IMG/VR virus record: IMGVR_UViG_3300031963_000072
Location: 1-64,000 of that record
Length of the DNA stretch: 64,000 nt
Strand: one strand, 5' to 3'
DNA from: a virus
The translations under genes and the position numbers were made by a program. The notes under the pieces are model-generated. The model saw nothing but the letters and a program-made list of their open reading frames with translations, was not told the origin of the DNA and made no database searches. Shown piece by piece: positions 13,688-43,592 of the stretch. Numbering within the stretch: the first letter of the stretch is position 1; each line of letters starts with the position of its first letter.

Positions 13688-13717
13688 GAACCTTATTGTA
13701 TTTAATAACTCACAATT

Positions 13718-14566
13718 TTATAATGTCAATTTGTCGCCTTGAATGCACTGCAGGACTTTTCTGAAAGAATCCCCGTACTGGGAGCGTAGCAGAGTCTCCG
13801 GATCTTCCCACTTTGCTATTCCTTCATGAGAGGAAGTTAATTGACCTGAGAACTTAACGGCTCTGAAGAAGTAGATGTTTTTCTCGCCCATCTTTTGCTT
13901 GCACAAATAAACAAGCTTGTCTGCGACGATTCCTGTTTCTTCATACAGCTCTCTTGCGGCAGCATCTTCAGGCGTTTCTCCCACCTCGATGCCACCTCCA
14001 GGCATGTTCATATTTTTTATGTCGCCGCCTCGAGAAACAGCGAGAACTTTATTGCCCGAAGTTACTAAAACTATAGATGCGCCATCTACGGCAGGAACCT
14101 CTTCTGAAGCCAAGTCTTTTTCAAGTGAGGAATTTAGACTTCTTACACTTTGTGCATTCCTGATATTGCCTGGTGCTTCATATCTACGCAGACCAGACAT
14201 TGAAAAATCACTATCCATCTCTAGGAGGGGAGAAGACTTTAGCCTACTGTGAAATTTTTTCTTAAGTGCTCTTGAAAGCAGCTTTCTTGTAACTTTTTGG
14301 TCTCCGCCTGATCTACGAAAAAATTCTTTGTATTTCTCAGAAGCGTAATTCCTAATGTCACTCTCAAGGTCATCTTTAACCTCTACACCGTATATCTCTT
14401 CCGCCATCTCGAGCCAGCCGTCGACGACGTCGTTTATGTTTGTAGTCTTCGTAAAAAAAGATCTCATGAGATCTTTTGCAGAAGCTGATCCTCTTTCTCT
14501 GTCTTTTAGGTAAAAAATTCCCTCTAGAACCTCTTCTACGTACTCTTTTAAAAGTTGATTTTTCAT
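13718..14566 (-). CDS. NUDIX hydrolase with N-terminal extension
   Basis: Nudix box GGIEVGETPEDAAARELYEETG; N-terminal LLKEYVEEVLE peptide. Confidence 0.9.
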   Translation of the reverse strand: MKNQLLKEYVEEVLEGIFYLKDRERGSASAKDLMRSFFTKTTNINDVVDGWLEMAEEIYGVEVKDDLESDIRNYASEKYKEFFRRSGGDQKVTRKLLSRALKKKFHSRLKSSPLLEMDSDFSMSGLRRYEAPGNIRNAQSVRSLNSSLEKDLASEEVPAVDGASIVLVTSGNKVLAVSRGGDIKNMNMPGGGIEVGETPEDAAARELYEETGIVADKLVYLCKQKMGEKNIYFFRAVKFSGQLTSSHEGIAKWEDPETLLRSQYGDSFRKVLQCIQGDKLTL

Positions 14567-27733: not shown

Positions 27734-28245
27734 GCCCCGCCAGCTCCTCCCATGGGACCTGCGGCACCAGCCTTAGGTGCCTGCACTTCATCGTCTTTCT
27801 CGGACTCAGACTGTCCTATCTCTATGCCATATGACTCTTGCAATTCAGCCTTAAATGCCTGAACGGCATCTCCCTCGTAGTTCTCAGAAAGATAGTTGGC
27901 AGCCCTGCGAAGTATTGTGTTCTTGACCTCGAGCAAAGAATCATAATTCTCAACAAGCCTCATGACATCTGAAACGAATGATCCCATGCTGATGTCTTCC
28001 AGTTTCGCCTTCTGCGGCTCTTCGGATTCCTCTTCTTCAGCTTCAGTTAGTTTACGCCAGTCCCATGTCAACTTGTTATGTGTGACTGATTCAAACTTTG
28101 CCTTGCTTTCTTCTTTTGCCTGAGATTCATACTGTGAGAGGTACTTGTCGATCTGAGAATCGACAGAATCTTCACCCGACTCCTTCTTCGGTTCTTCGTC
28201 AGCCTCTCGGAGAAGCCGCGCAAGTTCTTTCAAAGAATTCATCAC
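27730..28245 (-). CDS. hypothetical acidic protein
   Basis: LARLLRE leader, DSVDSQID, FVSDVMRL. Confidence 0.7.
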   Translation of the reverse strand: MMNSLKELARLLREADEEPKKESGEDSVDSQIDKYLSQYESQAKEESKAKFESVTHNKLTWDWRKLTEAEEEESEEPQKAKLEDISMGSFVSDVMRLVENYDSLLEVKNTILRRAANYLSENYEGDAVQAFKAELQESYGIEIGQSESEKDDEVQAPKAGAAGPMGGAGGA

Positions 28246-28967
28246 TTCACCACCGTTGCGATCGCCTCTGCTCTCTTGAAGCGGTCTTCGATGACCTGCC
28301 AGTTGAACTCACGCATCTGGGCGATGAGGTAGCTCTTCTTGTCGCTGAGGTAATCTTTATAGTATGCGTGCTCCCACATGTCCATGACGATGACTGGATA
28401 GAAACCGATAGGAACATCTCCGCTGTGGTGTGAGACCATGAAGTTAACATACTTCTTCAGGAACATGTGGTAACCGCAAACTGCCCATCCACTGCCTGCT
28501 GAAAGGGCACATGCCATGAAGTCACGTTGCCAGTCATCGAATGTACCAAAGTCTCTCTCAAGCTTGAGGTACGAGAGGGAGTCCATCACAACTTCACTGT
28601 GGGGATCAAAACAGTTTGCGAAGTAAAGCTCATGTAGCCACGTTGCGTTGAGGTTGTATGTCTCGTCGAGCTTGAGAGAACGATAATCAGAATGACGAGA
28701 GTTTACCTCTGATCGATTGGCTGTGTCAAGCTTTGCTGACACCTTGTTCAGAGATTCAATGTAACCCTTATAAAGCTCGCTATGAGAATCTTTGGTCTTC
28801 TGAGACACAAACTCTGAAACTTGCTTGAATTTCTTCTCTTGAGCGACATAAGACTCATCAAGCTTTTCTAAGGATATCTTCTCTTTCTTAAAGTGATCCT
28901 TTATGCTTTTTTTAACAATTCCGTCGACGTCGACGCCAGCAAGCAAATCCTTCTTATCATATGACAT
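28242..28967 (-). CDS. Fe/Mn superoxide dismutase-family protein
   Basis: H..LYKGY, LHELYF, GSGWAV, DMWEHAYY; start moved to MSYDKK. Confidence 0.9.
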   Translation of the reverse strand: MSYDKKDLLAGVDVDGIVKKSIKDHFKKEKISLEKLDESYVAQEKKFKQVSEFVSQKTKDSHSELYKGYIESLNKVSAKLDTANRSEVNSRHSDYRSLKLDETYNLNATWLHELYFANCFDPHSEVVMDSLSYLKLERDFGTFDDWQRDFMACALSAGSGWAVCGYHMFLKKYVNFMVSHHSGDVPIGFYPVIVMDMWEHAYYKDYLSDKKSYLIAQMREFNWQVIEDRFKRAEAIATVVK

Positions 28968-29229
28968 ATTCGTTCTCCAGTGTGTCTTTGTCAACAATGA
29001 ATAGCTTTCCCTCGGGTGTCTTAAGAATGGCATCTCTCGGTCCCACAGAAACTACCGTATATAAAATACCGTTGCGCTTAATTTTTAAGTCGGGTGAAAG
29101 AAGTGTCTTTTCTTTTCCGTCAACATTACCTTTAAAAGTAGCATCAACTTCTTCTGTAAGTCGAGCGAGTCTTGTTTCCCATTCTTCTCTCATAATTCTT
29201 ATGATATCTGCGTCTTCAAGCTTCTTCAT
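28957..29229 (-). CDS. hypothetical protein
   Basis: IIRIMREE leader; ATATTTA upstream. Confidence 0.7.
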   Translation of the reverse strand: MKKLEDADIIRIMREEWETRLARLTEEVDATFKGNVDGKEKTLLSPDLKIKRNGILYTVVSVGPRDAILKTPEGKLFIVDKDTLENEYVI

Positions 29230-29659
29230 GACTACTAAATATAACGTCAGAAAATCTATTTACGACAATGCCGCACGTTCGCAATATAGTCAATCCTGAC
29301 ACGTCTCTATATTCTTGATCATAAACTACTTCAGATATGTTGGCGTTCACTATTAACTTGGCACATTGCTGACACGGAGAGTGGGTCAAGTACATGATCT
29401 TGTTGCGATTGAAATTGTAATCACATTTGACCAAGGCATTGACTTCAGCGTGAATAAATCCACTGTGTCCTGGATCATTTGAGTCTGGTTGATGTGGACC
29501 ACCTCTGTAATTTCCATTGTATCCAAGAGCAAGCAGCCTTGTGTTATCATCGGATACAATGATTGTGCCTACCTTTAGCCTTGGGTCATAAGACCTTTCA
29601 GCTACAGTCTTGGCTATGGTCATCCACGTCTGATGCCACGTAGGTCTATTGACTTCCAT
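29216..29659 (-). CDS. dCMP deaminase
   Basis: RPTW, GYNG, HAE, SPCQQC. Confidence 0.92.
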   Translation of the reverse strand: MEVNRPTWHQTWMTIAKTVAERSYDPRLKVGTIIVSDDNTRLLALGYNGNYRGGPHQPDSNDPGHSGFIHAEVNALVKCDYNFNRNKIMYLTHSPCQQCAKLIVNANISEVVYDQEYRDVSGLTILRTCGIVVNRFSDVIFSSHEEA

Positions 29660-30227
29660 GTATTTTCTGTCTCTGGTCTATGGAGAGGTGGTGTGAATAG
29701 CATCTCGGCTCATACAGTTCTGAACCGCCAACTTCTATTTCTTCTCCTCCTGTCTGTTTCTTGTGCGTATAGTGTGCATCTCTACCACACACAGTACAGA
29801 CTGCAGTGCATTTCTCGACCTGGGTTGCCCAAACTAGCATTTTTTCTATTTCGCTAAATGGTTTTCCTGCAGCTGACATTTCAAGAGAAGAAACAACTAT
29901 TGTGAATCCATAAGTAAAAAGCCACGTCAAAGCATCTGCTGAACCTGGTATCATAAAAGCTTCATCGACTGCAACAACGTGCGGTTCTTCATCGAGGCTT
30001 GTCAGATATTCAAGTATTTCAGCCCCTGTTTTTACACATACGGCCGGGACCTTCCAACCGCTATGAGTGGCAACTTCACTATAGCTGTATCTATCGTCTA
30101 TATTTGGCTTAAAGATTACAATCTTTTTATGCTGATATTTGTATTTTTCAAGAGTTGAAAGAAGGCGACTTGTTTTTGAAGAAAACATTGGCCCGCAGTA
30201 AACAATAAACTCTGGGTTATTTAGCAT
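29646..30227 (-). CDS. tdk: thymidine kinase
   Basis: GPMFSSKT, DEA, CTVCG, YEPRC; start moved to MLNNPEF. Confidence 0.92.
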   Translation of the reverse strand: MLNNPEFIVYCGPMFSSKTSRLLSTLEKYKYQHKKIVIFKPNIDDRYSYSEVATHSGWKVPAVCVKTGAEILEYLTSLDEEPHVVAVDEAFMIPGSADALTWLFTYGFTIVVSSLEMSAAGKPFSEIEKMLVWATQVEKCTAVCTVCGRDAHYTHKKQTGGEEIEVGGSELYEPRCYSHHLSIDQRQKIHGSQ

Positions 30228-31189
30228 TTCTTTACCTCGTACCCTTTTACGATATCCCAGTTCTCTTCGTACCAAGCTATTGTTCTATCAAGACCTTCCC
30301 AAAATTGAACTTCAGGAACATATCCAATTTCTGACTTAATCAAAGACAAGTTTGCGTGCGTGTGCATCACATCACCAGGTCGCCAAGGAGCTGTAACATA
30401 CTTTGCATCTGGATACTTTTTAATTAAAAAATTAAGAATTTCTATGTTTTTCGTTTTGCTTCCACACGCGACGTTAAAATAATCTCCGTGAAATTCTTTT
30501 TCAGAAATGGCTGCCTTGTAGAAGGCCTGCGTTGCGTTGTCTACGTAACATAAGTCTCTTGATTGTGATCCGTCTCCGTCAGATCTCATGGGTTTTCCGC
30601 TTTTTATCGCAGTTAACCAGGCAGAAACAGCAGTTGAGTAAGGAGATCCGCCAAGCTGTCTAGGACCGAATACATTGAATAATCGCAAGCTTGCAGATTC
30701 AAGCTTATAATGCATCCAATATTGAATCAAATAGTCTTCTACGATAGACTTTTGCAAAGCATAGGGTGACTTAGGATTCTTCTGATATTCTTCTGAAGTA
30801 GGTAAAGTATCAGCGCCTCCGTAAACAGAAGAGGAGGAGGCAAATATAAATCTCTTTATATTCTTATTTGTGCAAGCATTGACTAAAGAAAGAGTCTTGG
30901 TCACGTTTGTTTCATGTGACTCAAGTGGGTGGTCGACAGAAAAAGAAACTCTTGGAATTGCCGCCAAATGAAAAACGTAGTCGTATGTTTTATCCTCAAT
31001 CTTCCGCAAAACTTCTCTGGAAGAAAAATCGTCGCAAAGAAATTCTTTGACAGACGGATTGACGTATTCCTTGTAACCGCTAGCCAGATTATCTACTACG
31101 GTGACTTCCCAACCATTAGAAATTAATCTGTCGGTCAAATGACTTCCAATGAATCCTGCACCGCCTGTTACTAATGCTCTTTTTTTCAT
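30221..31189 (-). CDS. NAD-dependent NDP-sugar epimerase/dehydratase
   Basis: TGGAGFIG, SSSSVYG, YALQK, NVFGPRQ, RPGDV. Confidence 0.92.
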   Translation of the reverse strand: MKKRALVTGGAGFIGSHLTDRLISNGWEVTVVDNLASGYKEYVNPSVKEFLCDDFSSREVLRKIEDKTYDYVFHLAAIPRVSFSVDHPLESHETNVTKTLSLVNACTNKNIKRFIFASSSSVYGGADTLPTSEEYQKNPKSPYALQKSIVEDYLIQYWMHYKLESASLRLFNVFGPRQLGGSPYSTAVSAWLTAIKSGKPMRSDGDGSQSRDLCYVDNATQAFYKAAISEKEFHGDYFNVACGSKTKNIEILNFLIKKYPDAKYVTAPWRPGDVMHTHANLSLIKSEIGYVPEVQFWEGLDRTIAWYEENWDIVKGYEVKKC

Positions 31190-31531: not shown

Positions 31532-32527
31532 TCAAGTTTTCCAGAAGCTGTAGAGATTCTTCTCTACTTCATAAGGCATTAACTTGACAGGACGCTGAGG
31601 CTGTGATGCAGCCCAGACAAACATTTTCTCTATTAGATCTTCGAAGTTTGTGTCATCTTTAAAGTTGAGATGTTCAATGGCTTTAGAATGATCACAATAG
31701 GCAATCTGAACTTCATCTCTTGCCTCAAGATGAACTACGCTTGTAGTATAGCCAAGTTTTTGAGCAACAGAGCAGAACATCTTTGAAGCCTCTAGAATCG
31801 ATATCTTAGAATCCGCGCCAATATTGTAGATCTCTCTATCACCTAGTGTCATCAAAGATTCAAAAGGCTCCATGTAATACTTGATGTCAGAAAAAGACCT
31901 GATCTGGGAACCGTCACCGTAGATGGTAATGGGCTGACCAGACAATGTTTGTCTAATCCAGATTCCAAGTACATTCCTGTATTTATCCCAGATATTCTGG
32001 TATATGCCGAACACGTTGTGAGGTCTTACTACCGAGTAGTTGAGATCAAATAAGCGAGAAGCGTGCTTCAGATCGAGCTCAACAGCGTATTTTGCAATTC
32101 CATACGGATCTTCAGGAGAGGGAACCATATCCTCTGTGTAAGGTGAGCTACATTCACTCCCGTAGACATCCATCGAAGAAGAAAATATTATTTTCTTTAC
32201 ACCGCCATTAATGCAACTGTTGATAACATTTGCAGAAGCAACCACATTGTTGGTGTAATTGAAGCTTCTAATAAAAGGACTCAATCCCACGGCAGCATAT
32301 GCAGCAAAATGATAGACATAGTCTGGTTTTGTGTCTTTGAAAATCTGTCCCACATTTTTTTGATCCGCTAAATTTACCTGGTGGAAAACCAGGCGTGAAT
32401 CAACGTTTTCAACATAACCTCCGCTAAGATCATCAATTCCAAAAACTTCGTGACCCTTGTCCAGCAGATGACGAGTTAGGTGAGATCCCAATAGACCAGC
32501 GCAACCTGTTACAATTATTCTAGACAT
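31532..32527 (-). CDS. NAD-dependent NDP-sugar epimerase/dehydratase
   Basis: TGCAGLLG, SSMDVYG, YGIAK, GDGSQIRSF. Confidence 0.92.
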   Translation of the reverse strand: MSRIIVTGCAGLLGSHLTRHLLDKGHEVFGIDDLSGGYVENVDSRLVFHQVNLADQKNVGQIFKDTKPDYVYHFAAYAAVGLSPFIRSFNYTNNVVASANVINSCINGGVKKIIFSSSMDVYGSECSSPYTEDMVPSPEDPYGIAKYAVELDLKHASRLFDLNYSVVRPHNVFGIYQNIWDKYRNVLGIWIRQTLSGQPITIYGDGSQIRSFSDIKYYMEPFESLMTLGDREIYNIGADSKISILEASKMFCSVAQKLGYTTSVVHLEARDEVQIAYCDHSKAIEHLNFKDDTNFEDLIEKMFVWAASQPQRPVKLMPYEVEKNLYSFWKT

Positions 32528-32535
32528 GAAATGAA

Positions 32536-33447
32536 TTATATCTTGTCGTTACGAACGTGGAGACTATTATAGCTTACGTCTAGAAGAATTTTACTAGGTT
32601 TCCAACTAAAAAATCTTGCAATTTCTGTAGAAAGATGAGACAAAAATCTCAAATCGGGAGAACCATTTCCCACAGAATCTGTGCTTCTTAATTGACAAAT
32701 GACTTTTAGATTGCCTTGTCTGTTAAGAAAATGTATTGAAGATATACACGTATCGCTAGAATAATAAAAGCGACGCGTGTCAAGATTCTGAGGAGTTTTA
32801 TAAGGATTGTCTCCGGCAGTCTCTCTAGAGATGATTTCTTTACACTTGCTCAATATCTCCTTAAAGTATTGAGCTTCATGCTCAATTTCTAGACAGTCTA
32901 CGTCGCTGTACTCTGGGGGTAGATTAAACCTTGCTCTAAACTGAACTTCTGCTTTCTCGTCCAATTTAGTCCACATTCTACTGAGAGAGCCAAAGACGGA
33001 AGGCGTAAGTTGCTCGTACTGATTTAGTGACTTCAAAGCCCTAGAAGTTAGAGATTCTCTATCGAGTTCTTCCCTGATGACAAGAACGTTGGGCAAAAAA
33101 GAAATCTTCTTGACTTCATCTTCAAAAATGTCGTGGAGGCGAACAAGGGAATCCTTGTCTTGAAAATCATCTCCTCTAACGCTAAGACGATCTATTAAAA
33201 CATCTTTTGCAGGTAATAGAACGATAAAGAAATTGTTTCCATCACACAGCTCTTCTCTAAGCGAATTTCTCAGATCTTCAGCAGCTGGCCTGTCGTACAG
33301 TCTAGCATAGCATAGCGTAGACAGATACGACCTGTCTCTAATATTCCTTATGTATGAAGTTGCCTTATTGAGGTTGGAATATAGAGAAGTTTTTCCGCTA
33401 CAATCAGGGCCTTCTATAACAACGTAATTGACCGGTAAGAATGTCAT
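32536..33447 (-). CDS. NMP kinase fused to a minimal thymidylate-synthase-like domain
   Basis: N-terminal EGPDCSGKT and DRSYLS; C-terminal RR, C, RSTD, D, SLH; start moved to MTFLPVN (ATGA overlap with dnaE). Confidence 0.75.
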   Translation of the reverse strand: MTFLPVNYVVIEGPDCSGKTSLYSNLNKATSYIRNIRDRSYLSTLCYARLYDRPAAEDLRNSLREELCDGNNFFIVLLPAKDVLIDRLSVRGDDFQDKDSLVRLHDIFEDEVKKISFLPNVLVIREELDRESLTSRALKSLNQYEQLTPSVFGSLSRMWTKLDEKAEVQFRARFNLPPEYSDVDCLEIEHEAQYFKEILSKCKEIISRETAGDNPYKTPQNLDTRRFYYSSDTCISSIHFLNRQGNLKVICQLRSTDSVGNGSPDLRFLSHLSTEIARFFSWKPSKILLDVSYNSLHVRNDKI

Positions 33448-36400
33448 GCCATTTGCCTCATCTTGAAAATAGATGTAGAAAATCCCCACTGTGCGTCGTG
33501 CTGAGCCTTGCAAACCCACAAAGTATAGGGAAGAATATCATCTTGTGGGGTACCCCATACTCTAAGCCTTGCAGTTCTGAATGTATTGTCAAGTGTCTTG
33601 ATTGCATAAAAGACTTTTCCGTTCTTTGTCTTCTTCTTCTCGACAGAAGAAGCGCAGAACCAGCCTATGCCCTCAGATCCTGCAGGAATATCGTGAATAC
33701 TGTAGACCTCTTTTTCCTCCACTTTCCGCATAACGTCCGGTGGAAACATTAAATCGCCGTCGACAGTTGAAGTCAGTTCGTATCTCACGCTTATCTTTTC
33801 AAATCTCTCCCAGTCTTCAACAGTCGAAAGTTCTTCTAGTAGAAAATCGAGTATAGGCATCACAGGCTCACCAAGCTTCTCCTTCTTCTTTAGCTGAGAA
33901 GCAGTGAGACCGTAATAGCCCTTTCTAAGGGTCTCATAGTTATCGCCCTCTGTCAGGGCCATCAAGACCTGCCTATGGTTTGAAACCCTCCCGTACTGAA
34001 AGTCTTCAAGGGATTCAAGCCCTTCGATCTTACAAAGAGATGTTAGAACCGTCTTGTTAATCTTACTCGGCTTCCATTCTCCGTTATCGTTGAACAGAAT
34101 GTCGCTAAGATTCTTGTAGGGTCTTGAGTAAATGATTTCGTCGACTGCGGCCGCACCGATACCTTTCACCGATGTAAGCGGCGGAACAAATGCTTGGGCT
34201 TCGTCAGAATATTGCCACTCTTTGCCAGAATAGTTGATATCGATCTTAGAGAAGGCGTACCCAATCGTCTTAATCTCAGAGATTGCCTTGGCTAGTGCGT
34301 CGGGATTACTGTTTTCCGACTGTAGAATTGTAGCGAGCCATTCTTTCTCGTAATGGGTGTGTAGCCATGCTGCATAGTAGGAGTCAAGTGCATAGGCAAC
34401 CGAGTGAGACTTGTTAAAGCCGTACAGAGAGAAGAACTCGATCTTATCGAACAGCTCGTGCATCATCTTTTCGGGAAGATTATGAAGGCGTTTCGCACCT
34501 TCAACAAACTTCTCACGGAGTGCTGCACGTTCGCCACCCTTCTTGTCTGCCGTGTCGAGAGACTTCTTGACAAGAGTTTTTCTCATTTGGTCGGCTTCAC
34601 CCTCAGTGAATCCTGAAAGTTCCATTGCAAGAAGCATGAATTGCTCCTGGAATGTGATGAATCCTCTCGTTGCGCCGAGAACCTTCTCGATGAGAGGGTG
34701 ATCGTACTTGATCTTCGATAGATCCTTACCAGCATCGACGTACATGTTGTGCACGTTCGCCTTGAGAGGACCAGGTCGATAGATTGCTGTTACCGCAGCA
34801 AGTTCGTCGATGTTATTAGGCTTCGCCTGCATGCAGAATTTGCGTGCGCCGCTGGCGGTAAATTGGAAAACTCCAACGAAGTTTCCTTTATGGTAAACAT
34901 GCTCCCAGACCTTGGGGTCGTCCTGCTTCACGTATCGGCAGTTGAGATGCTTGTCAAAGAATGCTTTGGTGTCTGTAAATGAAGGATTAGGATTACCCTC
35001 TTTGACAAGGATGCGTCTAATGCAGTTCTCTACGTCCTTGAGAAGCGTGAGACCCAAGAAGTCGAACTTAAGGAATCCGTTCTCCTCGAGGTTTCTGAAG
35101 TTCATGCCTTCAGACCAGGGAGTTTGTAGTTCACCACGGACACCAATGATTGGCATCGTAGCAGCCAAGTCATCAGGATCTGCAACGAGAACGCCACCTG
35201 CATGTCGACCTACAGATCGATTCTGCATGAAGAGCGTCTCAACGTGAGCAGCGACGTCGGGATACTTCTCCATGAACGCACGGTATTTCGGAGAATGCTT
35301 CATGCAGTCCTCATGCTTCAGGACGAAAACAGACTTTTCAGTATCGTCATCTCGGGCAAGGTTCATCACCTCATCCTGAAGCGGACCTGTCATCTCGTTA
35401 ACTTCCTCGAAAGGAACACTGTAGATCTTAGCGATGTCCTTGACAAGCGACTTAAGCTTCAAGGTATTGAAGTTGGAGACGGGTATGACGGCATCGTCGC
35501 CGAACAATTCTCGAGCTGCGTCGATCAGAGCATCTCGGTCACCAGCATCGGAGTCAATGTCAGGCCAAGCTACTTTCTGTCGATTGAGAAAGCGTCCCCA
35601 AAGCAAATTGTAGGGGATGGGATCGATCTGCGTAATACCAAGAAGAAAATTGACAAGAGATCCTGCGCCGCTGCCTCTTCCTGGGCCGAGGAGTGTCTTT
35701 GCCTCGGCCTTGTGGAAGATCTTATACATCGTCACGAAGTAAGAAGCGTGCCCAAGGAACTTGATGTCAGACAACTCCATCTTCGCACGTTCAACGTACT
35801 CAGGCTTGTCAGCGAGACCTTCGCGGACGAGTCCTTCCTTGACAAGTTCTGTGAGCTGCTGGAATGTAGACTTCTCTGGTGTATCTAAGTGAGGTAGTTT
35901 CGCCTTCGTAGGAATCCAGGTGTCTTCGCACTCCTGCCAGGCGAGGTCGTGAGTACGCTCGATGGAATCTCTAACTAATTCTTCTGTCCCTCTGTAGAAG
36001 TCGTACTGTTCGTAGGACGCCTTGTACTCGTCCCACATCTGCGAGGCATTTTTGGGGTACAGCTCACACTTGAGATCTTCAAATTTAGGAAGAGCAGACT
36101 GTTCTAGCTTGGCACCCATCCACCCAAGCTTCTTGTACAGCTCGCGAGCCTGCCATTTAGAAGGATCCGGGTAGTGAGAATCGCAGGTTGAAACGAGCGG
36201 GATACCTGTCTTCCTGTGAAGTTCTATGAGATACTTGTTAACAGTGTGCTGTTTTTCAAGCTTATTGAATTGCAGCTCGAGGAAAAAGTTGTTACGCCCG
36301 ACAGACTCTACAAATCTGTCTGCTACATTCTCAATGTCATTGAGAATCTCGATCTCAGACTTACCGTGAGCCTCACCGAGCAGAATTTTGGAAGAAAAAT

Positions 36401-37040
36401 AGCCGCCGAGGCAGGCGGTCGACCAGATGATGTCGCTTCCATACTTCGACAAGAGATCAAAGTCAATTCTTGGGTATCGATAGAATCCATCCTTGTATGA
36501 CAGTTTCACAAGTCTGTAGAGGTTTGCGAGACCGTTCTTGTTTTTTGCGACTGCCACCAGGTGGTAACGTCGTTGCCAATCTTTCGATTTAACGTCGACC
36601 GTCTTGGTCTCATTCTCGTCCTCTACGACAAGACCTCCCTGTTCTTCTTCGTCTGCATCGACGTCTGTAGGAGTCTTTGCTCTCTTCTCTGCCTCAGCAG
36701 CGGTCTTGGCGTCTTTGATGGACTGTTTATGAGCTTCGTAGTCGATCGACCACTGAGACAGAGATGGAACGAAGTAGAACTCAACACCGTAAAGCTGCCT
36801 ATACTTAATGCCCTTCTTGACAACCTTGGCAGCAGCGTTTTTAGCGTGGGCGTGTCCGTTGCCGTTGCCGTGATCTGTCAAAGCCCAAGCATCCATGCCT
36901 TGAGACTCTGAGGTGACAAATGAGATATGGGATTCAGGATAGCCGAGTCCGTCGAAAGTGCTAAATCCTGAGTGGGAGTGTAAACCAACAAATCGTGTCG
37001 GCGGCCTGATTTCATCCAGCGTCTTGATGAGACTTGACAT
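33444..37040 (-). CDS. dnaE: DNA polymerase III alpha subunit (family C)
   Basis: PHP domain (HSH, TDHG, DSHY), GRGSGAGS, PDIDSD, KFDFLGL, FNKSH; start moved to MSSLIK; no intein seen. Confidence 0.96.
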   Translation of the reverse strand: MSSLIKTLDEIRPPTRFVGLHSHSGFSTFDGLGYPESHISFVTSESQGMDAWALTDHGNGNGHAHAKNAAAKVVKKGIKYRQLYGVEFYFVPSLSQWSIDYEAHKQSIKDAKTAAEAEKRAKTPTDVDADEEEQGGLVVEDENETKTVDVKSKDWQRRYHLVAVAKNKNGLANLYRLVKLSYKDGFYRYPRIDFDLLSKYGSDIIWSTACLGGYFSSKILLGEAHGKSEIEILNDIENVADRFVESVGRNNFFLELQFNKLEKQHTVNKYLIELHRKTGIPLVSTCDSHYPDPSKWQARELYKKLGWMGAKLEQSALPKFEDLKCELYPKNASQMWDEYKASYEQYDFYRGTEELVRDSIERTHDLAWQECEDTWIPTKAKLPHLDTPEKSTFQQLTELVKEGLVREGLADKPEYVERAKMELSDIKFLGHASYFVTMYKIFHKAEAKTLLGPGRGSGAGSLVNFLLGITQIDPIPYNLLWGRFLNRQKVAWPDIDSDAGDRDALIDAARELFGDDAVIPVSNFNTLKLKSLVKDIAKIYSVPFEEVNEMTGPLQDEVMNLARDDDTEKSVFVLKHEDCMKHSPKYRAFMEKYPDVAAHVETLFMQNRSVGRHAGGVLVADPDDLAATMPIIGVRGELQTPWSEGMNFRNLEENGFLKFDFLGLTLLKDVENCIRRILVKEGNPNPSFTDTKAFFDKHLNCRYVKQDDPKVWEHVYHKGNFVGVFQFTASGARKFCMQAKPNNIDELAAVTAIYRPGPLKANVHNMYVDAGKDLSKIKYDHPLIEKVLGATRGFITFQEQFMLLAMELSGFTEGEADQMRKTLVKKSLDTADKKGGERAALREKFVEGAKRLHNLPEKMMHELFDKIEFFSLYGFNKSHSVAYALDSYYAAWLHTHYEKEWLATILQSENSNPDALAKAISEIKTIGYAFSKIDINYSGKEWQYSDEAQAFVPPLTSVKGIGAAAVDEIIYSRPYKNLSDILFNDNGEWKPSKINKTVLTSLCKIEGLESLEDFQYGRVSNHRQVLMALTEGDNYETLRKGYYGLTASQLKKKEKLGEPVMPILDFLLEELSTVEDWERFEKISVRYELTSTVDGDLMFPPDVMRKVEEKEVYSIHDIPAGSEGIGWFCASSVEKKKTKNGKVFYAIKTLDNTFRTARLRVWGTPQDDILPYTLWVCKAQHDAQWGFSTSIFKMRQMA

Positions 37041-37046
37041 GGTGTT

Positions 37047-37075
37047 ATTGTAATGCAATCGTATTTTACTTTACA
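37047..37075 (-). promoter_or_regulatory. sigma70-like promoter of dnaE
   Basis: TGTAAA-17 nt-TACAAT, 6 nt upstream of the ATG. Confidence 0.6.
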
Positions 37076-37125: not shown

Positions 37126-37587
37126 TCACTCAATTTCCTTGTCGTAAGGCTCGTAGAGCATCTTACCTGCATCACTGCAACGATTGAGGTAATCCTCGAG
37201 CTGCTCGAAGGTAGTACACACCTTGATGCCAGATCGACTGAGCATCAAGTTGAACTTAGCACCTTGCGGGAGATTCTCGCAGAAGTAGATGATCTTGCGA
37301 TCTAGAGCGAATGCTGCGCCGGCCTCCCAGATCGTGCCAATGTCTCTGTACGTGGTGTTGACGAGGGTGAAGTCACACTCACGGATGTGCTTCATGTTGC
37401 CCTTAAACACGTTGTCCTGAACCTCTAGAGAGGCGTCTGGTGGGCATACGAAGATCCGGCGAGGCGAGGCGAGCTCGATCCAGTCAGAACGACTGTCGAA
37501 CACTGCCTCGAGCTTCGTGAGCTGCTTGTCTTGGTCTGGCGAAAACCAACCGCTTGCGAGGTAAACAGCTTGCTTACGATCAAACAT
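37126..37587 (-). CDS. nucleoside 2'-deoxyribosyltransferase / dNMP N-glycosidase family
   Basis: VYLASGWF, DIGTIWEAG, NLML. Confidence 0.85.
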   Translation of the reverse strand: MFDRKQAVYLASGWFSPDQDKQLTKLEAVFDSRSDWIELASPRRIFVCPPDASLEVQDNVFKGNMKHIRECDFTLVNTTYRDIGTIWEAGAAFALDRKIIYFCENLPQGAKFNLMLSRSGIKVCTTFEQLEDYLNRCSDAGKMLYEPYDKEIE

Positions 37588-37770: not shown

Positions 37771-38754
37771 TTACTTGTTACCCTTCCAGGCATCGTGTTG
37801 TGCCTTAAGTCCATCCCAGTCTTTCATATCTGCGTTCCACAGTTCGGTGAACCTCTTCTGTGGACCATCTCCGTGCGTACCGTTGATTTCCTCCCTCGTG
37901 CACTGGTAGATCGTGTCGTTTGGGTGGAACTCAAACTTGTCGTTCTTCGGAATTGGCCAGTATAGGTTAGTGCCACGAGACACGAACTTGTCACCTTCCT
38001 TCACTCGGAAGGTCTTGATGTAGTGCATATCGGGCTTGTTGAAGTCAATCACCGAGGTAAATTCAGGAATTACCTTGGCAACTTCCACCGCCATTCTCGA
38101 TGCCAGGAGGTTATCGGCAGCAGGCTGGATCTGTGTGTCCATGCGCTGGTAGATGAAACCGATGAGGTCCTTGAGGGAGAGGCGCATGTAGTAGAACGAG
38201 GTCATGCACTTCGGAAGAACAAGACGTGCATCCATCATAGAGACTACCTTGGAGTCGACCATCTCAGCATACAGTTCCTTGGAGTCATTCACGATCTTCT
38301 CCCATCGGCGAAGGAAGTCAGGGGAATTCTGCACAGGCTCTGGGATCACGACGTCATCATCACGAAGGTCACGGTCACCAGTACACTGGGCGGCGAAGGT
38401 GCCGGCTCGGTGACGGATGATATGGGTCACCTCCTGGAAGGACAGGCCACTGAGTCGGAAGGTGAATCCGAGGCATTCCATTGGGGCAGGAAGAGTGCGA
38501 CCACCGAACACGTCCTCGAGGTTCTTGGATAGTTCTTGCTGAGACACACCTTCTGTCGGGTCGATGTCAGGACGGTCTGCCCACGTGGCCTTGACGTAGT
38601 GCCATGCCACGTTCCACGCCTGTTGGCGGGTCGGATGATCGACAAGTTCCACTTTGAGGGCGTCGAGGTTATTGAGGAAAGTGGTCTTCGGTTCTTGACC
38701 GAACTTGAGGACCATTGGGAGTTCGATTGGTTCTAGGTCTTTGTTGATGGGCAT
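37771..38754 (-). CDS. non-canonical ThyX-family flavoprotein
   Basis: PMECLGFTF, HIIRHR..TF, DARLVLP, FIYQR; the ThyX SxR motif is replaced by CTG. Confidence 0.75.
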   Translation of the reverse strand: MPINKDLEPIELPMVLKFGQEPKTTFLNNLDALKVELVDHPTRQQAWNVAWHYVKATWADRPDIDPTEGVSQQELSKNLEDVFGGRTLPAPMECLGFTFRLSGLSFQEVTHIIRHRAGTFAAQCTGDRDLRDDDVVIPEPVQNSPDFLRRWEKIVNDSKELYAEMVDSKVVSMMDARLVLPKCMTSFYYMRLSLKDLIGFIYQRMDTQIQPAADNLLASRMAVEVAKVIPEFTSVIDFNKPDMHYIKTFRVKEGDKFVSRGTNLYWPIPKNDKFEFHPNDTIYQCTREEINGTHGDGPQKRFTELWNADMKDWDGLKAQHDAWKGNK

Positions 38755-42279: not shown

Positions 42280-43218
42280 TCAGAGGGTAGGAATAAATTC
42301 AACTGGATTTCTTTCCCGAGGAACATATACGACGTTATTGATTCCTCTGACCTCTTGATTATAAGACTTCTCAGGAACAAGAACCTTCACGCCATGTTTA
42401 GCATATTCTGCAGCATGCTTTGCAGAATCGTCTATCGCGAAATATTTACCCGTACTATAGAAGACTTGTTTAGAAAGCCAAATAAACTTTTCTGGAGCAA
42501 AAGCAACCCCATCTGCATCGATATCGTTTCTCTTGAGCCAGGTATAAGTGTCATAGAAGCACGCAAGCTCATTTGACGGTCTCGACGTAAGGATCTGAAT
42601 CCAGAAACCCTTGTCTTTGAGATAGTTTAGTAGATCGATATAGACCTCGTCACGCTCGAGCATCGCAAGACCATGACAGTCCATAAACTCTTTGAAATAT
42701 CCTTCGCTATTAACGCCGAGGCGTTTGAATTCTCGAACGTTATAGTACTCATCACTCTCAGGATCTATGAAATGGCCGCACTTTTTAGAAGACCACTCGC
42801 AGAACGACTTTCTGAAGTTTGCAAGAACATCATCCATGTCAAAAATAGCAACTGGCTGACCTTGCCACCGCCTGCCAGACAGCCTATGCCTGTAGTGGAG
42901 GAAGTCATCCTTTTGACTCAGAGCAGCTGCAAAATTATTCCCATCAATTTCCCAGAGGTTTAGGATGGCAAGAATATAACGATATGCATCAACAGTCTTA
43001 TAAAGAATCTTAGCCTTATCAACAGGCTCAGAAGCACAACGGTGATCTTTGTAATTAACAGACTCAACGATACCTGTCGCCTCTGAATGAAGAGCAAGCA
43101 CAAGAGTCTTTAATTGTTCTTCTCTTTGCTCATTAGTAAGGCTGGTGGCCTCGAAGAAAAGGTCCGAGAATGCTTTTTGAGCCTCTAAAGATTCGCTTAG
43201 ATTTGACCAATTCATCAA
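42280..43218 (-). CDS. degenerate all-alpha NTP-PPase domain fused to a HAD 5'-nucleotidase
   Basis: HAD motifs DMDDV, TSR, K, IDD; N-terminus resembles the neighbouring NTP-PPase. Confidence 0.75.
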   Translation of the reverse strand: MMNWSNLSESLEAQKAFSDLFFEATSLTNEQREEQLKTLVLALHSEATGIVESVNYKDHRCASEPVDKAKILYKTVDAYRYILAILNLWEIDGNNFAAALSQKDDFLHYRHRLSGRRWQGQPVAIFDMDDVLANFRKSFCEWSSKKCGHFIDPESDEYYNVREFKRLGVNSEGYFKEFMDCHGLAMLERDEVYIDLLNYLKDKGFWIQILTSRPSNELACFYDTYTWLKRNDIDADGVAFAPEKFIWLSKQVFYSTGKYFAIDDSAKHAAEYAKHGVKVLVPEKSYNQEVRGINNVVYVPRERNPVEFIPTL

Positions 43219-43592
43219 TAATCTTTCTTTAGTCTGTCGTGGATTATTCCATCTTTTCTAACGTAAGCATGAAACAACTCATCAGCATCAATTCCAAGCA
43301 TCACAAGAACTGACAGGAAGTAGTTAAAAGCGTCAACATACTCCTCAAGGAAAGCCTCGTGGTCGAAGTCTGCAACTTCTGTGGTCCTGTGAGGCTTCCA
43401 GTTCTTGAGGTGAGCAAGTGACTCAAACATTTCCTCTACACCCTTTAGAACGGTATCTCTCACGACTTGCTGAGATTCTTTCTTGGAGATGTCGACAGGC
43501 CAGTCTTGCAACACAGCAGGCCTCTTCTCTGCCAAATCTTTCATAAACTTCTCTCGAAGCTGAAGCATTTTTGTTAACTTACAACTATCCAT
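43215..43592 (-). CDS. all-alpha dNTP pyrophosphatase (dimeric dUTPase/dCTPase, MazG-like)
   Basis: EEMFE, WKPH, EEYVD, YVRK..R..DY. Confidence 0.82.
   Translation of the reverse strand: MDSCKLTKMLQLREKFMKDLAEKRPAVLQDWPVDISKKESQQVVRDTVLKGVEEMFESLAHLKNWKPHRTTEVADFDHEAFLEEYVDAFNYFLSVLVMLGIDADELFHAYVRKDGIIHDRLKKDY

What the first reader, a model, noticed from the sequence alone, without database searches (positions are those of the whole stretch)
32536..33447. NMP kinase fused to a minimal TS-like domain with the dCMP-type Asp
Seen: C-terminal RR..., TC, then R-S-T-D-x7-D and SLH. Counting from RSxD (E. coli ThyA R166-S167-x-D169), Asp occupies the N177 position. Known: Asn here selects dUMP, while Asp selects dCMP, as in T4 dCMP hydroxymethylase. 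The recognisable domain is short (about 100 aa) and appears to lack much of the folate-binding region. Canonical ThyX and Tmk exist elsewhere, so this gene is not needed for dTTP. It is ATGA-coupled to dnaE and followed by epimerases. Inference: it makes and phosphorylates a C5-modified dCMP, possibly by non-folate chemistry.
Basis: partly seen in the sequence, partly recalled or inferred. Interest (0 to 1): 0.78.

Follow-up and report, generated by a model that had tools for sequence, protein, structure and literature searches.

The report
Phage kinase fused to mini thymidylate-synthase
An uncultured freshwater giant phage encodes, directly behind its DNA polymerase gene, one protein that joins a nucleotide kinase to a stripped-down thymidylate-synthase-type domain with the residues that grip and attack cytosine nucleotides, so it probably makes an altered C building block for the phage DNA; the product is not known.

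Summary
ORF 32536-33447 (-) encodes 303 aa and its ATG overlaps the dnaE stop (ATGA). Residues 1-145 are a YorR/Tmk-like P-loop nucleotide kinase. Residues 146-303 fold as a thymidylate synthase (TS) core of 158 aa, not about 100 (AlphaFold pLDDT 94; the only matches with Z 8.3-11.9 are TS-superfamily chains; hhalign to T4 gp42 E 8e-8, best of 42 controls 0.03).

R225/R226, C234, R254/S255/D257 and D265 align with E. coli ThyA R126/R127, C146, R166/S167/D169 and N177. Across 80 relatives, Cys and the cytosine-type Asp are each kept in 79. The D169-equivalent varies (N 37, D 28, E 14). The TS stretch that holds W80, and the C-terminal tail, are missing.

The fusion is a virus-only family (128 IMG/VR relatives). 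It lies behind DnaE in 79 of 80 loci, near thymidine kinase, dCMP deaminase and UDP-sugar 4-epimerases.

Best reading (0.55): it adds a C5 group to dCMP and phosphorylates the product. The recently described flavin-dependent 5-hydroxy-dCMP synthases, whose gene clusters also hold a Tmk/YorR-like kinase gene, are the closest analogue. Neither the product nor any DNA modification is shown.

This scan noted the same kind of fusion before on another genome (e1-5659294). I found no paper describing it.

The parts
33013..33447 (-). N-terminal P-loop nucleotide kinase domain (residues 1-145), YorR/Tmk-like
   Evidence: Profile vs PDB: SPbeta YorR 2axp E 9.4e-13. VIA-align: 2axp Z 14.5, Tmk 4dwj Z 12.9. 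phrog_761 'thymidylate kinase' E 2.8e-12. The P-loop G13/D15/G18/K19, D38-R39, R87 and R91-G92-D93 are invariant in 80 of 80 members. Below the curated cut-offs of PF02223 and TIGR00041.
32539..33012 (-). C-terminal minimal thymidylate-synthase-fold domain (residues 146-303); C234 codon at 32748-32746, D265 codon at 32655-32653
   Evidence: AF2 domain model pLDDT 94.4. VIA-align wide: the 7 best chains are all TS superfamily, Z 8.3-10.8, 133-146 of 158 residues aligned, and the next unrelated chain has Z 6.0. Foldseek top hit 9iqu E 1.2e-6. hhalign to T4 gp42 E 8.2e-8. Residue census.
32536..32538 (-). Stop codon TAA; the next gene starts 8 nt downstream at 32527
33444..37058 (-). DnaE-type DNA polymerase III alpha gene, overlapping the fusion gene's start by ATGA
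   Evidence: DnaE-cluster genes lie upstream within 8 genes in 79 of 80 loci and are immediately upstream in 45. In 27 of those 45 the gap is 12 nt or less.
31532..32527 (-). NAD-dependent NDP-sugar 4-epimerase-like SDR (GalE-like)
   Evidence: PF01370 E 1.3e-47. PDB 4zrm UDP-glucose 4-epimerase E 5.9e-45. The epimerase cluster is within 8 genes in 59 of 80 loci and at +1 in 34.
30221..31189 (-). Second NDP-sugar 4-epimerase-like SDR (WbgU/WbpP/TviC-like)
   Evidence: PF01370 E 5.6e-54. NF011728 TviC E 1.1e-47, below cut-off. PDB 6dnt E 4.7e-57 and WbgU E 1e-44.
29646..30275 (-). Thymidine kinase
   Evidence: PF00265 E 2.3e-38; within 8 genes in 65 of 80 loci
29216..29659 (-). dCMP deaminase
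   Evidence: PF00383 E 2.9e-21; within 8 genes in 59 of 80 loci
43215..43592 (-). MazG-type nucleoside triphosphate pyrophosphohydrolase, a possible dCTPase analogue (inferred)
   Evidence: phrog_12184 E 2e-16. PF08761 E 1.9e-5. An orthologue is present in 5 of 5 related large records, 9.5-20 kb from the fusion gene in the other four.
37771..38754 (-). Divergent second ThyX-like gene of the same conserved region; its role is unknown and it may or may not belong to the pathway
   Evidence: PF02511 E 9.1e-18. TIGR02170 35.6 bits, below the 87.9 cut-off. Within 8 genes in 30 of 80 loci. A long ThyX-like open frame (327-346 aa) is present in 5 of 5 records.

Best explanation
The gene encodes a bifunctional enzyme of pyrimidine deoxynucleotide supply in an uncultured freshwater jumbo phage.

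The C-terminal 158-residue domain is a minimal member of the thymidylate synthase / dCMP hydroxymethylase superfamily.
- It binds a cytosine nucleotide, most likely dCMP. Arg225/Arg226 (probably supplied by the partner subunit of a dimer), Arg254 and Ser255 would hold the phosphate. Asp265 would read the cytosine N3/N4 edge. His297 would lie at the sugar.
- Cys234 adds to C6 of the base. This makes C5 nucleophilic, so that a group is installed there.

The domain lacks the TS stretch that holds W80 (named in PMC13326640 among the residues near C5 of dUMP) and the C-terminal tail. Its D169-equivalent residue drifts between Asn, Asp and Glu. The one-carbon folate reaction is therefore unlikely. 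The most likely product is 5-hydroxy-dCMP, made with a loosely bound reduced flavin and O2 as in phage AfhB / RB69 gp48. 5-hydroxymethyl-dCMP or an undescribed group are the alternatives.

The N-terminal YorR/Tmk-like kinase then phosphorylates the product to the diphosphate. Host kinases may not accept a modified nucleotide. The modified dCTP would then be used by the DnaE replicase encoded just upstream.

The neighbouring UDP-sugar 4-epimerases and a UDPGP-like gene may supply a sugar for later glycosylation of the base in DNA.

Shown here: the fold, the residue equivalences, family-wide conservation, the fusion, the synteny and the virus-only distribution. Inferred: substrate, chemistry, cofactor, order of the two reactions, dimerisation, and any DNA modification.
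For: Fold:
- The full-length AF2 model has pLDDT 94.0 and pTM 0.89. The domain model has pLDDT 94.4.
- Against 48,161 PDB representatives, the 7 best chains are all TS superfamily: 9iqc Z 10.8 with 146 aligned, ThyA 3ix6 Z 10.1, MilA Z 9.1, T4 dCH Z 8.3. The next, unrelated chain has Z 6.0.
- Foldseek's top hit is 9iqu, the HY126 dCMP hydroxylase AfhB, at E 1.2e-6.

Sequence:
- The domain profile hits only TS-superfamily chains in the PDB (5 of 5 hits; T4 dCH E 0.0017, AfhB E 0.043).
- hhalign gives E 8.2e-8 to T4 gp42, 3.4e-5 to RB69 gp48 and 1.4e-4 to E. coli ThyA. The best of 42 controls is 0.032.

Catalytic residues kept in 80 members at 34% mean identity: C234 79, D265 79, E191 79, R225 80, R226 78, R254 78, S255 78, H297 78.

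Kinase residues: P-loop, D38-R39 and R87/R91-G-D are kept in 80 of 80.

D169-equivalent: N 37, D 28, E 14, all with the same synteny. Asn there is the published signature of 5hodCMP synthases, and Asp at N177 is the published dCMP determinant (PMC13326640, sections 24 and 28 read).

Rosetta-stone argument: Table 1 of that paper lists a YorR/Tmk-like 'nucleotide kinase' gene in the same gene cluster as each 5hodCMP synthase gene, one to two locus tags away (DLP3 gp78 and gp80, RB69 gp45 and gp48, RL38J1 gp214 and gp216). Here the two kinds of protein are one polypeptide.

Context:
- DnaE lies upstream in 79 of 80 loci, thymidine kinase near in 65, dCMP deaminase in 59 and an epimerase in 59.
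- A MazG-type NTP pyrophosphatase is present in 5 of 5 large records.
- No PF00303 gene is found in 5 of 5 records, so this domain is their only TS-fold protein.

Distribution: 128 relatives in IMG/VR. Only 1 full-length relative was found among genomes of 185,579 species.

RNA libraries: contigs from 3 metatranscriptome runs lie on the gene, and two of them bridge the dnaE/fusion junction. This is weak evidence, because DNA carry-over is not excluded.
Against: - No chemistry has been seen. There are no virion nucleosides and no assay.
- The window's own protein has Asp, not the diagnostic Asn, at the D169 position.
- The domain is about 60-80 residues shorter than the known 5hodCMP synthases (217-238 aa). 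Whether any flavin or folate pocket survives cannot be judged, because coordinates and ligand contacts were not available.
- Structure comparison does not separate the subfamilies: MilA Z 11.9, TS 11.2 and AfhB 10.9 are ties.
- Pfam does not recognise the domain. Two of 41 members match PF00303 at best E 0.066.
- No glycosyltransferase was found in the 81,920-nt record, nor among the 40 other window ORFs scanned with Pfam. The record is only about 25% of a genome.
- In relatives, GT1 (4 of 5 records) and GT2 (3 of 5) genes lie far from the fusion gene.
- The kinase could equally be a deoxynucleoside kinase or a plain dTMP kinase. Four of 4 large relatives lack a separate Pfam-detectable Tmk.
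- The alignments of E191 and Y216 to T4 E60 and Y96 have low per-column confidence.
Confidence: 0.55

Rival explanations
1. The TS-like domain no longer catalyses anything. It is a nucleotide-binding remnant that captures or senses dCMP (or another pyrimidine dNMP) and regulates, oligomerises or feeds the kinase. The kinase is then the only activity.
For: About 106 residues of a normal ThyA are missing, including the stretch that holds W80 and Y94 in E. coli ThyA and the C-terminal tail (length arithmetic; VIA ranges). Pfam does not recognise the domain. The D169-equivalent is not fixed.
Against: The nucleophilic Cys is kept in 79 of 80 members and the Glu aligned with T4 gp42 E60 in 79 of 80, at 34% mean identity in this domain. 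A pure binding module has no need of the Cys. Known 5hodCMP synthases also end shortly after the conserved His: RB69 gp48 has 238 aa with the His near residue 225.
Confidence: 0.18
2. The order is reversed. The N-terminal domain is a deoxynucleoside (deoxycytidine) kinase that salvages dC to dCMP. The TS-like domain then modifies that dCMP, and later phosphorylation is left to other kinases.
For: Deoxynucleoside kinases match the N-domain about as well as Tmk: 8puu deoxyadenosine kinase Z 12.4, 2jas Z 11.7, 2ocp dGK Z 10.4, against Tmk Z 12-13. The neighbourhood is rich in salvage genes: thymidine kinase, an NDT-like gene, and a DHHA1 phosphoesterase in 45 of 80 loci.
Against: The best sequence matches are YorR and Tmk-type families. 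In the T4 and RB69 paradigms, the step that needs a phage enzyme is phosphorylation of the modified dNMP (PMC13326640, section 24). Nothing here separates the two orders.
Confidence: 0.12
3. The protein belongs to ordinary dTTP/dCTP supply. The kinase is the phage's thymidylate (or general pyrimidine dNMP) kinase. The TS-like domain is a relic of an ancestral ThyA-Tmk pair whose methylation role has passed to ThyX.
For: Four of 4 related large records, one of them 100% complete, have no PF02223 Tmk, while all 5 records searched have ThyX. JGI names several members 'thymidylate kinase'.
Against: This genome has its own Tmk next to its canonical ThyX. Asp, not the uracil-type Asn, is fixed at the N177 position in 79 of 80 members. 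A relic would not keep Cys, Glu, Arg and Ser.
Confidence: 0.1
4. It acts on the ribonucleotide CMP, like MilA, to start a nucleoside-type small molecule rather than a DNA base.
For: MilA (CMP hydroxymethylase) is the single best VIA second-look match, Z 11.9, although this is a tie with TS and AfhB.
Against: The gene is translationally coupled to the replicative polymerase and surrounded by deoxynucleotide enzymes (thymidine kinase, dCMP deaminase, RNR, ThyX). No antibiotic-type biosynthetic genes were seen among the ORFs scanned.
Confidence: 0.03

Closest known systems
Flavin-dependent 5-hydroxy-dCMP synthases of the TS superfamily (HY126 AfhB, PDB 9iqu/9iqc; RB69 gp48; DLP3 gp80) with the Tmk/YorR-like 'nucleotide kinase' genes of the same clusters (PMC13326640)
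   Same: TS fold: top Foldseek hit at E 1.2e-6 and VIA Z 10.8-10.9. Cys nucleophile. Asp at the N177 position. The chain ends a few residues after the conserved Ser-Ala/Leu-His strand. Asn at the D169 position in 37 of 80 family members. A Tmk/YorR-like kinase is genetically linked, and here it is fused. NDP-sugar genes lie nearby.
   Different: The domain has 158 aa against 217-238. It is fused to the kinase rather than being a separate gene. The window's protein has Asp at D169. Flavin binding is unknown. No arabinose-5-phosphate isomerase or DNA glycosyltransferase was found nearby. The replicase is DnaE and the phage is not a Straboviridae-type phage.
T4 gp42 dCMP hydroxymethylase (PDB 1b49/1b5d/6a9a), which works with the separate gp1 dNMP kinase
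   Same: Best sequence-profile match: hmmsearch E 0.0017 and hhalign E 8.2e-8. C148, D179 and the R-S-x-D motif are conserved. The Glu aligns with E60. The logic is the same: modify dCMP, then phosphorylate it. The phage also carries dCMP deaminase, thymidine kinase and an NTP pyrophosphatase, as T4 does.
   Different: T4 gp42 has 246 aa and binds CH2-THF. This domain lacks about 90 of those residues, its D169-equivalent is not fixed across the family, and the kinase is of a different family (YorR/Tmk-like rather than gp1-like) and is fused.
Thymidylate synthase ThyA (PF00303)
   Same: Core fold (Z 10-11). Residue equivalences R126/R127, C146, R166/S167/D169.
   Different: Asp replaces N177. 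The domain is about 106 residues shorter. It lacks most of the stretch between E58 and R126, which holds W80 and Y94 in E. coli ThyA, and it lacks the C-terminal tail. It scores below the Pfam threshold.
Bacillus subtilis SPbeta YorR (PDB 2axp/3kb2), an uncharacterised Tmk-like kinase
   Same: Best match of the N-terminal domain: profile E 9.4e-13 and Z 14.5 with 139 residues aligned. It shares the G-P-D-x-x-x-K-[ST] P-loop and the R-x-R-G-D-E lid motif.
   Different: YorR is a single-domain protein of 173 aa with no TS-like domain. Its substrate is not known to me.

Membership tests
Thymidylate synthase / dCMP hydroxymethylase superfamily (fold level) | TS alpha/beta fold: central sheet with flanking helices, covering the whole domain | tested here: met
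   The 7 best of 48,161 chains are all TS superfamily, Z 8.3-10.8 with 133-146 of 158 residues aligned, and the next chain has Z 6.0. 396 chains have Z >= 8 in the second look. Foldseek probability 1.00.
Thymidylate synthase / dCMP hydroxymethylase superfamily (fold level) | Catalytic Cys (E. coli C146) and the phosphate-binding residues R126/R127 and R166/S167 | tested here: met
   hhalign equivalences. Kept in 78-80 of 80 members.
Thymidylate synthase / dCMP hydroxymethylase superfamily (fold level) | Score above the Pfam PF00303 gathering threshold | tested here: not met
   No PF00303 hit for the protein at E <= 10. Two of 41 domain sequences hit at best E 0.066. The six-frame search also finds none in 5 records.
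Folate-dependent TS / hydroxymethylases (ThyA, T4 gp42, MilA) | Folate-binding elements: the ThyA stretch that holds W80 (and, from recall, W83), the C-terminal tail, and an invariant D169 | tested here: not met
   There are 34 fewer residues between the conserved Glu and the Arg-Arg pair than in E. coli ThyA. The chain ends 6 residues after His297. In L. casei TS (316 aa) the alignment ends at residue 265. The D169-equivalent is N 37, D 28, E 14. The assignment of these elements to folate binding is recalled knowledge; W80 and D169 are named in PMC13326640 section 28 as residues near C5 of dUMP.
Cytosine-specific branch (T4 gp42, MilA, 5hodCMP synthases) | Asp instead of Asn at the E. coli N177 position | tested here: met
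   D265 aligns with N177 and with T4 D179. Kept in 79 of 80 members. The rule is quoted from PMC13326640 section 24.
Flavin-dependent 5-hydroxy-dCMP synthase (AfhB / RB69 gp48 type) | Asn at the D169 position (published diagnostic signature) | tested here: not met
   The window's protein has D257. The family has N in 37 of 80, D in 28 and E in 14. The window's nearest relatives, L001-L007, all have D.
Flavin-dependent 5-hydroxy-dCMP synthase (AfhB / RB69 gp48 type) | Acidic residue instead of the bulky L143, three residues before the Cys | tested here: inconclusive
   The window has S231-D232-T233-C234. In the family, position -3 is D/E in 38 of 80 and position -2 is D/E in 60 of 80; no hydrophobic residue except 2 Ala and 2 Pro at -2. 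The loop is 11 residues shorter than in ThyA, so the register is uncertain.
Flavin-dependent 5-hydroxy-dCMP synthase (AfhB / RB69 gp48 type) | Binds a flavin and uses O2 to hydroxylate C5 | not testable with these tools
   No coordinates or ligand modelling were available. The paper on the AfhB structure is not in the library.
Tmk/YorR-like P-loop (deoxy)nucleotide kinases | P-loop, D-R-x NMP-site motif, Arg-rich lid, and kinase fold | tested here: met
   Invariant G13, D15, G18, K19, D38, R39, R87, R91, G92 and D93 in 80 of 80 members. YorR Z 14.5 and Tmk Z 12-13.
Thymidylate kinase proper (PF02223 / TIGR00041) | Score above the curated cut-off | tested here: not met
   PF02223 15.7 bits against cut-off 27. 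TIGR00041 23.6 bits against 83.25.

The most novel reading that the evidence does not exclude
The 158-residue TS core is a new minimal catalytic form of the TS superfamily. It needs neither a folate pocket nor the flavin pocket of AfhB. Either the fused kinase domain completes its active site, or it uses a different electrophile or oxidant. On this reading, a large clade of aquatic DnaE-type jumbo phages replaces cytosine with a base that has not yet been described, possibly glycosylated afterwards with a UDP-sugar made by the adjacent 4-epimerases.
Probability: 0.2. Interest if true: 0.88.

Novelty: new variant of a known kind. Interest (0 to 1): 0.7.

Why it matters
TS-superfamily enzymes are the entry point of almost every known pyrimidine hypermodification of phage DNA. 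Only in 2025-2026 was it shown that some of them use flavin and O2 instead of folate.

This protein would be the smallest TS-fold enzyme known to me (158 aa). It would also be the first found fused to its partner kinase. That fusion links the Tmk/YorR-like 'nucleotide kinase' genes of the published 5-hydroxycytosine clusters functionally to the base-modifying step.

The family is abundant in aquatic viromes (128 IMG/VR relatives, contigs up to 284 kb). It is absent from the 50,697 phage records searched and is unannotated. If it is active, many environmental jumbo phages carry modified cytosine that current sequencing-based surveys and restriction or CRISPR models ignore.

A minimal enzyme of this size would also be a convenient tool for making modified dCTP.

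Tried and rejected
- Pfam, NCBIfam and PHROGs on the whole protein see only the kinase half. phmmer against the PDB also sees only YorR.
- tblastn against 50,697 phage records found one partial kinase-only hit, Pelagibacter phage HTVC119P, 33% coverage, E 8e-4. No cultured phage with this gene was found.
- A search for stand-alone short forms of the C-domain (30-165 aa) found none. That search depends on shared words, so distant ones may exist. The ESM Atlas lists viral clusters of 144-195 aa as nearest, one of them with PF00303 on 12% of members. These were not followed up and may be fragments.
- P0222, an apparent alternative fusion, has an N-terminal 140 aa unrelated to the kinase. From recall it looks like LpxB, and I take it for an assembly chimera.
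- The VIA second look did not decide between the hydroxylase, hydroxymethylase and methylase subfamilies: Z 10.9-11.9, all ties.
- hhalign of the family against RB69 gp45, the kinase of the RB69 cluster, aligned only the P-loop (24 columns, probability 80%). The two kinases are therefore analogous, and a close relationship is not shown.
- The low-stringency hhalign to E. coli ThyA placed His297 against H212 with zero confidence. I take H297 as the equivalent of T4 gp42 H216. Its equivalence to E. coli H207 is my inference.
- Glycosyltransferases:
  - None of PF00534 or PF00535 in the own 81,920-nt record.
  - PF09198 (T4 glucosyltransferase) hit nothing anywhere, and its control did not ring either, so that search is uninformative.
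  - None among the 40 other window ORFs scanned with Pfam. Not all ORFs were scanned.
- phmmer of the MazG-like protein against the PDB gave nothing meaningful.
- Literature:
  - Searches found no description of a kinase-TS fusion.
  - The paper by He et al. on AfhB, cited in PMC13326640, is not in the library.
I therefore could not see whether any of the nine metaviromic TS homologues tested in PMC13326640 is such a fusion.
  - In PMC8989533 I read only the two passages containing 'fusion'. They concern 5-HMUDK fusions, not this one.
- Sequencing runs: RNA-library contigs cover only parts of the stretch. Uncovered parts mean nothing, and DNA carry-over is not excluded.
- No dimer model, PAE map or ligand docking could be made.
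Full report
**What is there.** On the minus strand an ORF runs from the ATG at 33447 to the TAA at 32536-32538 and encodes 303 aa. The ATG overlaps the TGA of the 1204-aa DnaE-type polymerase gene (33444-37058), giving ATGA. The next gene, an NAD-dependent epimerase, starts 8 nt after the stop.

**N-terminal half.**
- Pfam, NCBIfam and PHROGs see only a weak Tmk-like kinase: AAA_28 and PF02223 below cut-off, TIGR00041 at 23.6 bits, phrog_761 at E 2.8e-12.
- A profile of 32 family members matches the SPbeta protein YorR (2axp/3kb2) at E 9.4e-13.
- In the AlphaFold model, residues 1-147 match YorR at Z 14.5 (139 aligned). They match thymidylate and deoxynucleoside kinases at Z 10-13.
- The P-loop (G13, D15, G18, K19), D38-R39, R87 and R91-G92-D93 are invariant in 80 of 80 members.

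This is an intact kinase of the Tmk/YorR kind. Its substrate cannot be read from sequence.

**C-terminal half: fold.**
- The full-length model is confident (pLDDT 94.0, pTM 0.89), and so is a model of residues 146-303 alone (pLDDT 94.4).
- For the domain model, the seven best of 48,161 PDB representatives are all TS-superfamily members:
  - the riboflavin/FAD-dependent dCMP monooxygenase 9iqc, Z 10.8 with 146 of 158 residues aligned
  - three ThyA chains, Z 9.5-10.1
  - MilA, Z 9.1
  - the plant DHFR-TS, Z 9.0
  - T4 dCMP hydroxymethylase, Z 8.3
- The next, unrelated chain has Z 6.0.
- Foldseek's best hit is 9iqu, 'phage HY126 dCMP hydroxylase AfhB', at E 1.2e-6, and the other rows listed are TS, DHFR-TS, dCMP hydroxymethylase or MilA chains (for the full model).
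- The second look over Foldseek's 1000 best gives 396 chains with Z >= 8. It does not separate subfamilies: MilA 11.9, TS 11.2 and AfhB 10.9 are ties.

The predicted elements are one N-terminal helix, a long strand, a short and then a long helix, four more strands and a long helix before the last strand. From my recollection of TS structures, these are helix A, strand i, helix B, strands ii-v and helix J of TS. The domain is therefore 158 residues, not about 100.

**C-terminal half: sequence.**
- A profile of 41 domain sequences (A2) hits only TS-superfamily chains in the PDB: 5 of 5 hits, with T4 dCMP hydroxymethylase at E 0.0017 and AfhB at E 0.043.
- hhalign of that profile gives E 8.2e-8 (probability 94.5%) to T4 gp42, 3.4e-5 to RB69 gp48 and 1.4e-4 to E. 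coli ThyA. Under the same settings the best of 42 unrelated window proteins gives E 0.032.
- Pfam's own TS model does not reach the domain: no hit for this protein, and 2 of 41 members at best E 0.066.

**Residue equivalences.**
- Against E. coli ThyA: R225/R226 = R126/R127, C234 = C146, R254-S255-T256-D257 = R166-S167-C168-D169, and D265 = N177.
- Against T4 gp42: C234 = C148, D265 = D179 and H297 = H216.
- With low per-column confidence: E191 = E60, Y216 = Y96 and E167 = E35 of T4 gp42.
- That T4 E60, Y96 and H216 correspond to E. coli E58, Y94 and H207 is recalled knowledge, not a result here. The low-stringency ThyA alignment is unreliable in that region.

Counting from these anchors, the domain has the following differences from E. 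coli ThyA:

| Segment | Difference from ThyA |
|---|---|
| Before the conserved Glu | 12 residues fewer |
| Between the Glu and the Arg-Arg pair (holds W80 and Y94 in ThyA) | 34 fewer |
| Between the Arg-Arg pair and the Cys | 11 fewer |
| After His297 | ends 6 residues after it; ThyA continues for 57 after H207 |

In L. casei TS (316 aa) the structural alignment ends at residue 265.

**Conservation.**
- The family is large. There are 218 proteins at E <= 1e-3 in one search, nearly all about 300 aa and full length. There are 209 cluster representatives in the other.
- In 80 members (79 IMG/VR loci plus the window; one locus, L052, gave no ORF in the cluster and was left out), mean pairwise identity is 40% in the kinase half and 34% in the TS half.
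- Despite that, C234 is kept in 79, D265 in 79, E191 in 79, Y194 in 78, R225 in 80, R226 in 78, R254 in 78, S255 in 78 and H297 in 78.
- The one position that drifts is the D169-equivalent: Asn 37, Asp 28, Glu 14. All three states show the same gene neighbourhood. The window and its nearest relatives have Asp.
- Just before the Cys, the family has polar or acidic residues (position -3 D/E in 38 of 80, position -2 D/E in 60 of 80). It has no hydrophobic residue there except 2 Ala and 2 Pro at -2.

**Context and distribution.**
- The alignment-based scan of IMG/VR found 128 relatives, of which 80 loci were kept.
- With my own ORF calling and BLAST clustering, the following lie within eight genes of the fusion gene:
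  - a DnaE-cluster gene upstream in 79 of 80 loci. It is immediately upstream on the same strand in 45. The gap is 12 nt or less in 27 of those 45, and an ATGA overlap occurs in 4.
  - thymidine kinase in 65
  - an epimerase-family gene in 59, at +1 in 34
  - dCMP deaminase in 59
  - a DHHA1 phosphoesterase in 45
  - an SOD-like gene in 43
  - an NDT-like gene in 38
  - a divergent ThyX in 30
- In 185,579 species genomes only one full-length relative turned up, on a 26-kb MAG contig. The 12 other hits are kinase-only.
- No cultured phage has the gene.
- The window's own record is 81,920 nt and is estimated at 25% of a genome. Relatives reach 284 kb.
- In five records (own plus four large relatives) there is exactly one copy of the mini-TS domain in each. 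There is no PF00303 gene. ThyX is present in 5 of 5, in two copies in 4 of them. The MazG-type NTP pyrophosphatase of 43215-43592 is present in 5 of 5. A Pfam-detectable Tmk is found only in the own record.
- The two SDR genes after the fusion gene are UDP-hexose 4-epimerase-like, matching 4zrm, 6dnt, WbgU, WbpP and TviC. A UDPGP-like gene lies at 12713-13687.
- No glycosyltransferase was found in the own record or among the 40 other ORFs scanned. GT1 genes occur in 4 of 5 and GT2 genes in 3 of 5 large relatives, but far from the fusion gene.
- The stretch is present, at half or more of its sampled words, in 17 runs labelled freshwater, aquaculture, 'fungus' or plain metagenome, dated 2017-2024; 11 of these may be the source of this DNA.
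- Contigs from three metatranscriptome libraries lie on the gene. Two of them bridge the dnaE/fusion junction (33332-33619 and 33359-33539). One, from a related strain, bridges the fusion/epimerase junction. This is compatible with co-transcription but does not prove it.

**Comparison with what is known.** PMC13326640 (sections 24, 25, 27, 28 and 29 read) reports the following:
- TS homologues of RB69 (gp48), DLP3 (gp80), RL38J1 and nine other viral sequences make 5-hydroxy-dCMP from dCMP with O2 and a loosely bound flavin.
- Asp at N177 marks dCMP use. An acidic residue at L143 marks non-methyl products. Asn at D169 is their diagnostic signature.
- The product must be phosphorylated by a phage dNMP kinase before incorporation and later glycosylation.
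- Table 1 lists, in the same gene cluster as each synthase gene and one to two locus tags away, a 'nucleotide kinase' whose best structural matches are YorR or Tmk (DLP3 gp78, RB69 gp45, RL38J1 gp214).

The protein studied here is the same pair of folds in one chain. It has the same C-terminal ending just after the conserved His, and Asn at D169 in nearly half of its family. It differs in several ways:
- It is 60-80 residues shorter than those synthases.
- This particular protein has Asp at D169.
- It belongs to DnaE-type jumbo phages.
- It lacks the arabinose genes.

T4 gp42 plus gp1 is the older analogue and the best sequence match. My searches found no paper describing such a fusion. An earlier follow-up of this scan reached a similar reading for a relative in another genome (e1-5659294). 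That is not independent evidence.

**Verdict.** The interpretation that the protein modifies dCMP at C5 and phosphorylates the product is the best-supported reading, and I give it 0.55. Within it, hydroxylation of the AfhB kind is the most likely chemistry. Hydroxymethylation and an undescribed reaction remain open.

The main rivals are:
- a non-catalytic nucleotide-binding remnant (0.18)
- a reversed order with a deoxynucleoside kinase (0.12)
- an ordinary Tmk role (0.10)
- a ribonucleotide (CMP) substrate, as in MilA (0.03)

Nothing shows that the phage DNA is modified.

Noticed in passing
window 37771-38754 (-) and 52125-52784 (-): There are two ThyX genes. A canonical one scores 100.9 bits on TIGR02170, above the cut-off. 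A long divergent one (327 aa) scores 35.6 bits, below it. Four of the 5 records searched carry two ThyX matches, and a long ThyX-like open frame (327-346 aa) is present in all 5. The divergent copy lies within 8 genes of the fusion gene in 30 of 80 loci. It may be a second, different pyrimidine-modifying enzyme.
   Followed up: partly
records G001-G004 (relatives reached through L004, L011, L040, L075): None of the four large relatives, one of them 100% complete at 284 kb, has a Pfam-detectable thymidylate kinase. Only the window's record does. In most of the clade the fused YorR-like kinase may therefore be the only Tmk-like kinase.
   Followed up: partly
window 12303-14566 (-): A small HhH-GPD base-excision glycosylase-like gene (137 aa), a UDPGP-like nucleotidyl-sugar pyrophosphorylase gene (324 aa, PF01704 30.1 bits, over cut-off) and a NUDIX gene lie side by side. 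This sugar-nucleotide metabolism might connect with the two 4-epimerases.
   Followed up: no
window 28242-29033 (-): A 263-aa protein has only the C-terminal Fe/Mn superoxide dismutase domain detected (PF02777, E 1.8e-19). Its gene cluster lies within 8 genes of the fusion gene in 43 of 80 loci. A link to oxygen or flavin chemistry is pure speculation.
   Followed up: no
window 37126-37587 (-): A nucleoside 2-deoxyribosyltransferase-family gene (PF05014 E 6.4e-13; phrog_7995) lies between dnaE and the divergent ThyX. It is within 8 genes in 38 of 80 loci. From recall, members of this family include dNMP N-hydrolases.
   Followed up: no
loci L004 etc., cluster 8 (e.g. L004:12501-13412): A DHHA1-domain phosphoesterase of about 304 aa lies 2-8 genes downstream of the fusion gene in 45 of 80 loci. 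It is absent from this window's neighbourhood.
   Followed up: no
window 58912-59988 (-): An actin-like gene of the Volactin family (PF25216, E 9.7e-68) lies in a phage replication region, next to UvsX-like, DnaB-like and gp32-like genes.
   Followed up: no
protein P0222: A 254-aa database protein joins an unrelated N-terminal 140 aa (LpxB-like from recall) to the last ~110 residues of the mini-TS domain. It is most likely an assembly chimera, not a second architecture.
   Followed up: no
proteins P0237, P0246, P0254: More distant, longer (336-353 aa) kinase + TS-like fusions exist. They keep the Cys, the R-S-S-D motif, the Asp and the His, so the architecture is older and broader than the 80 loci analysed.
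   Followed up: no
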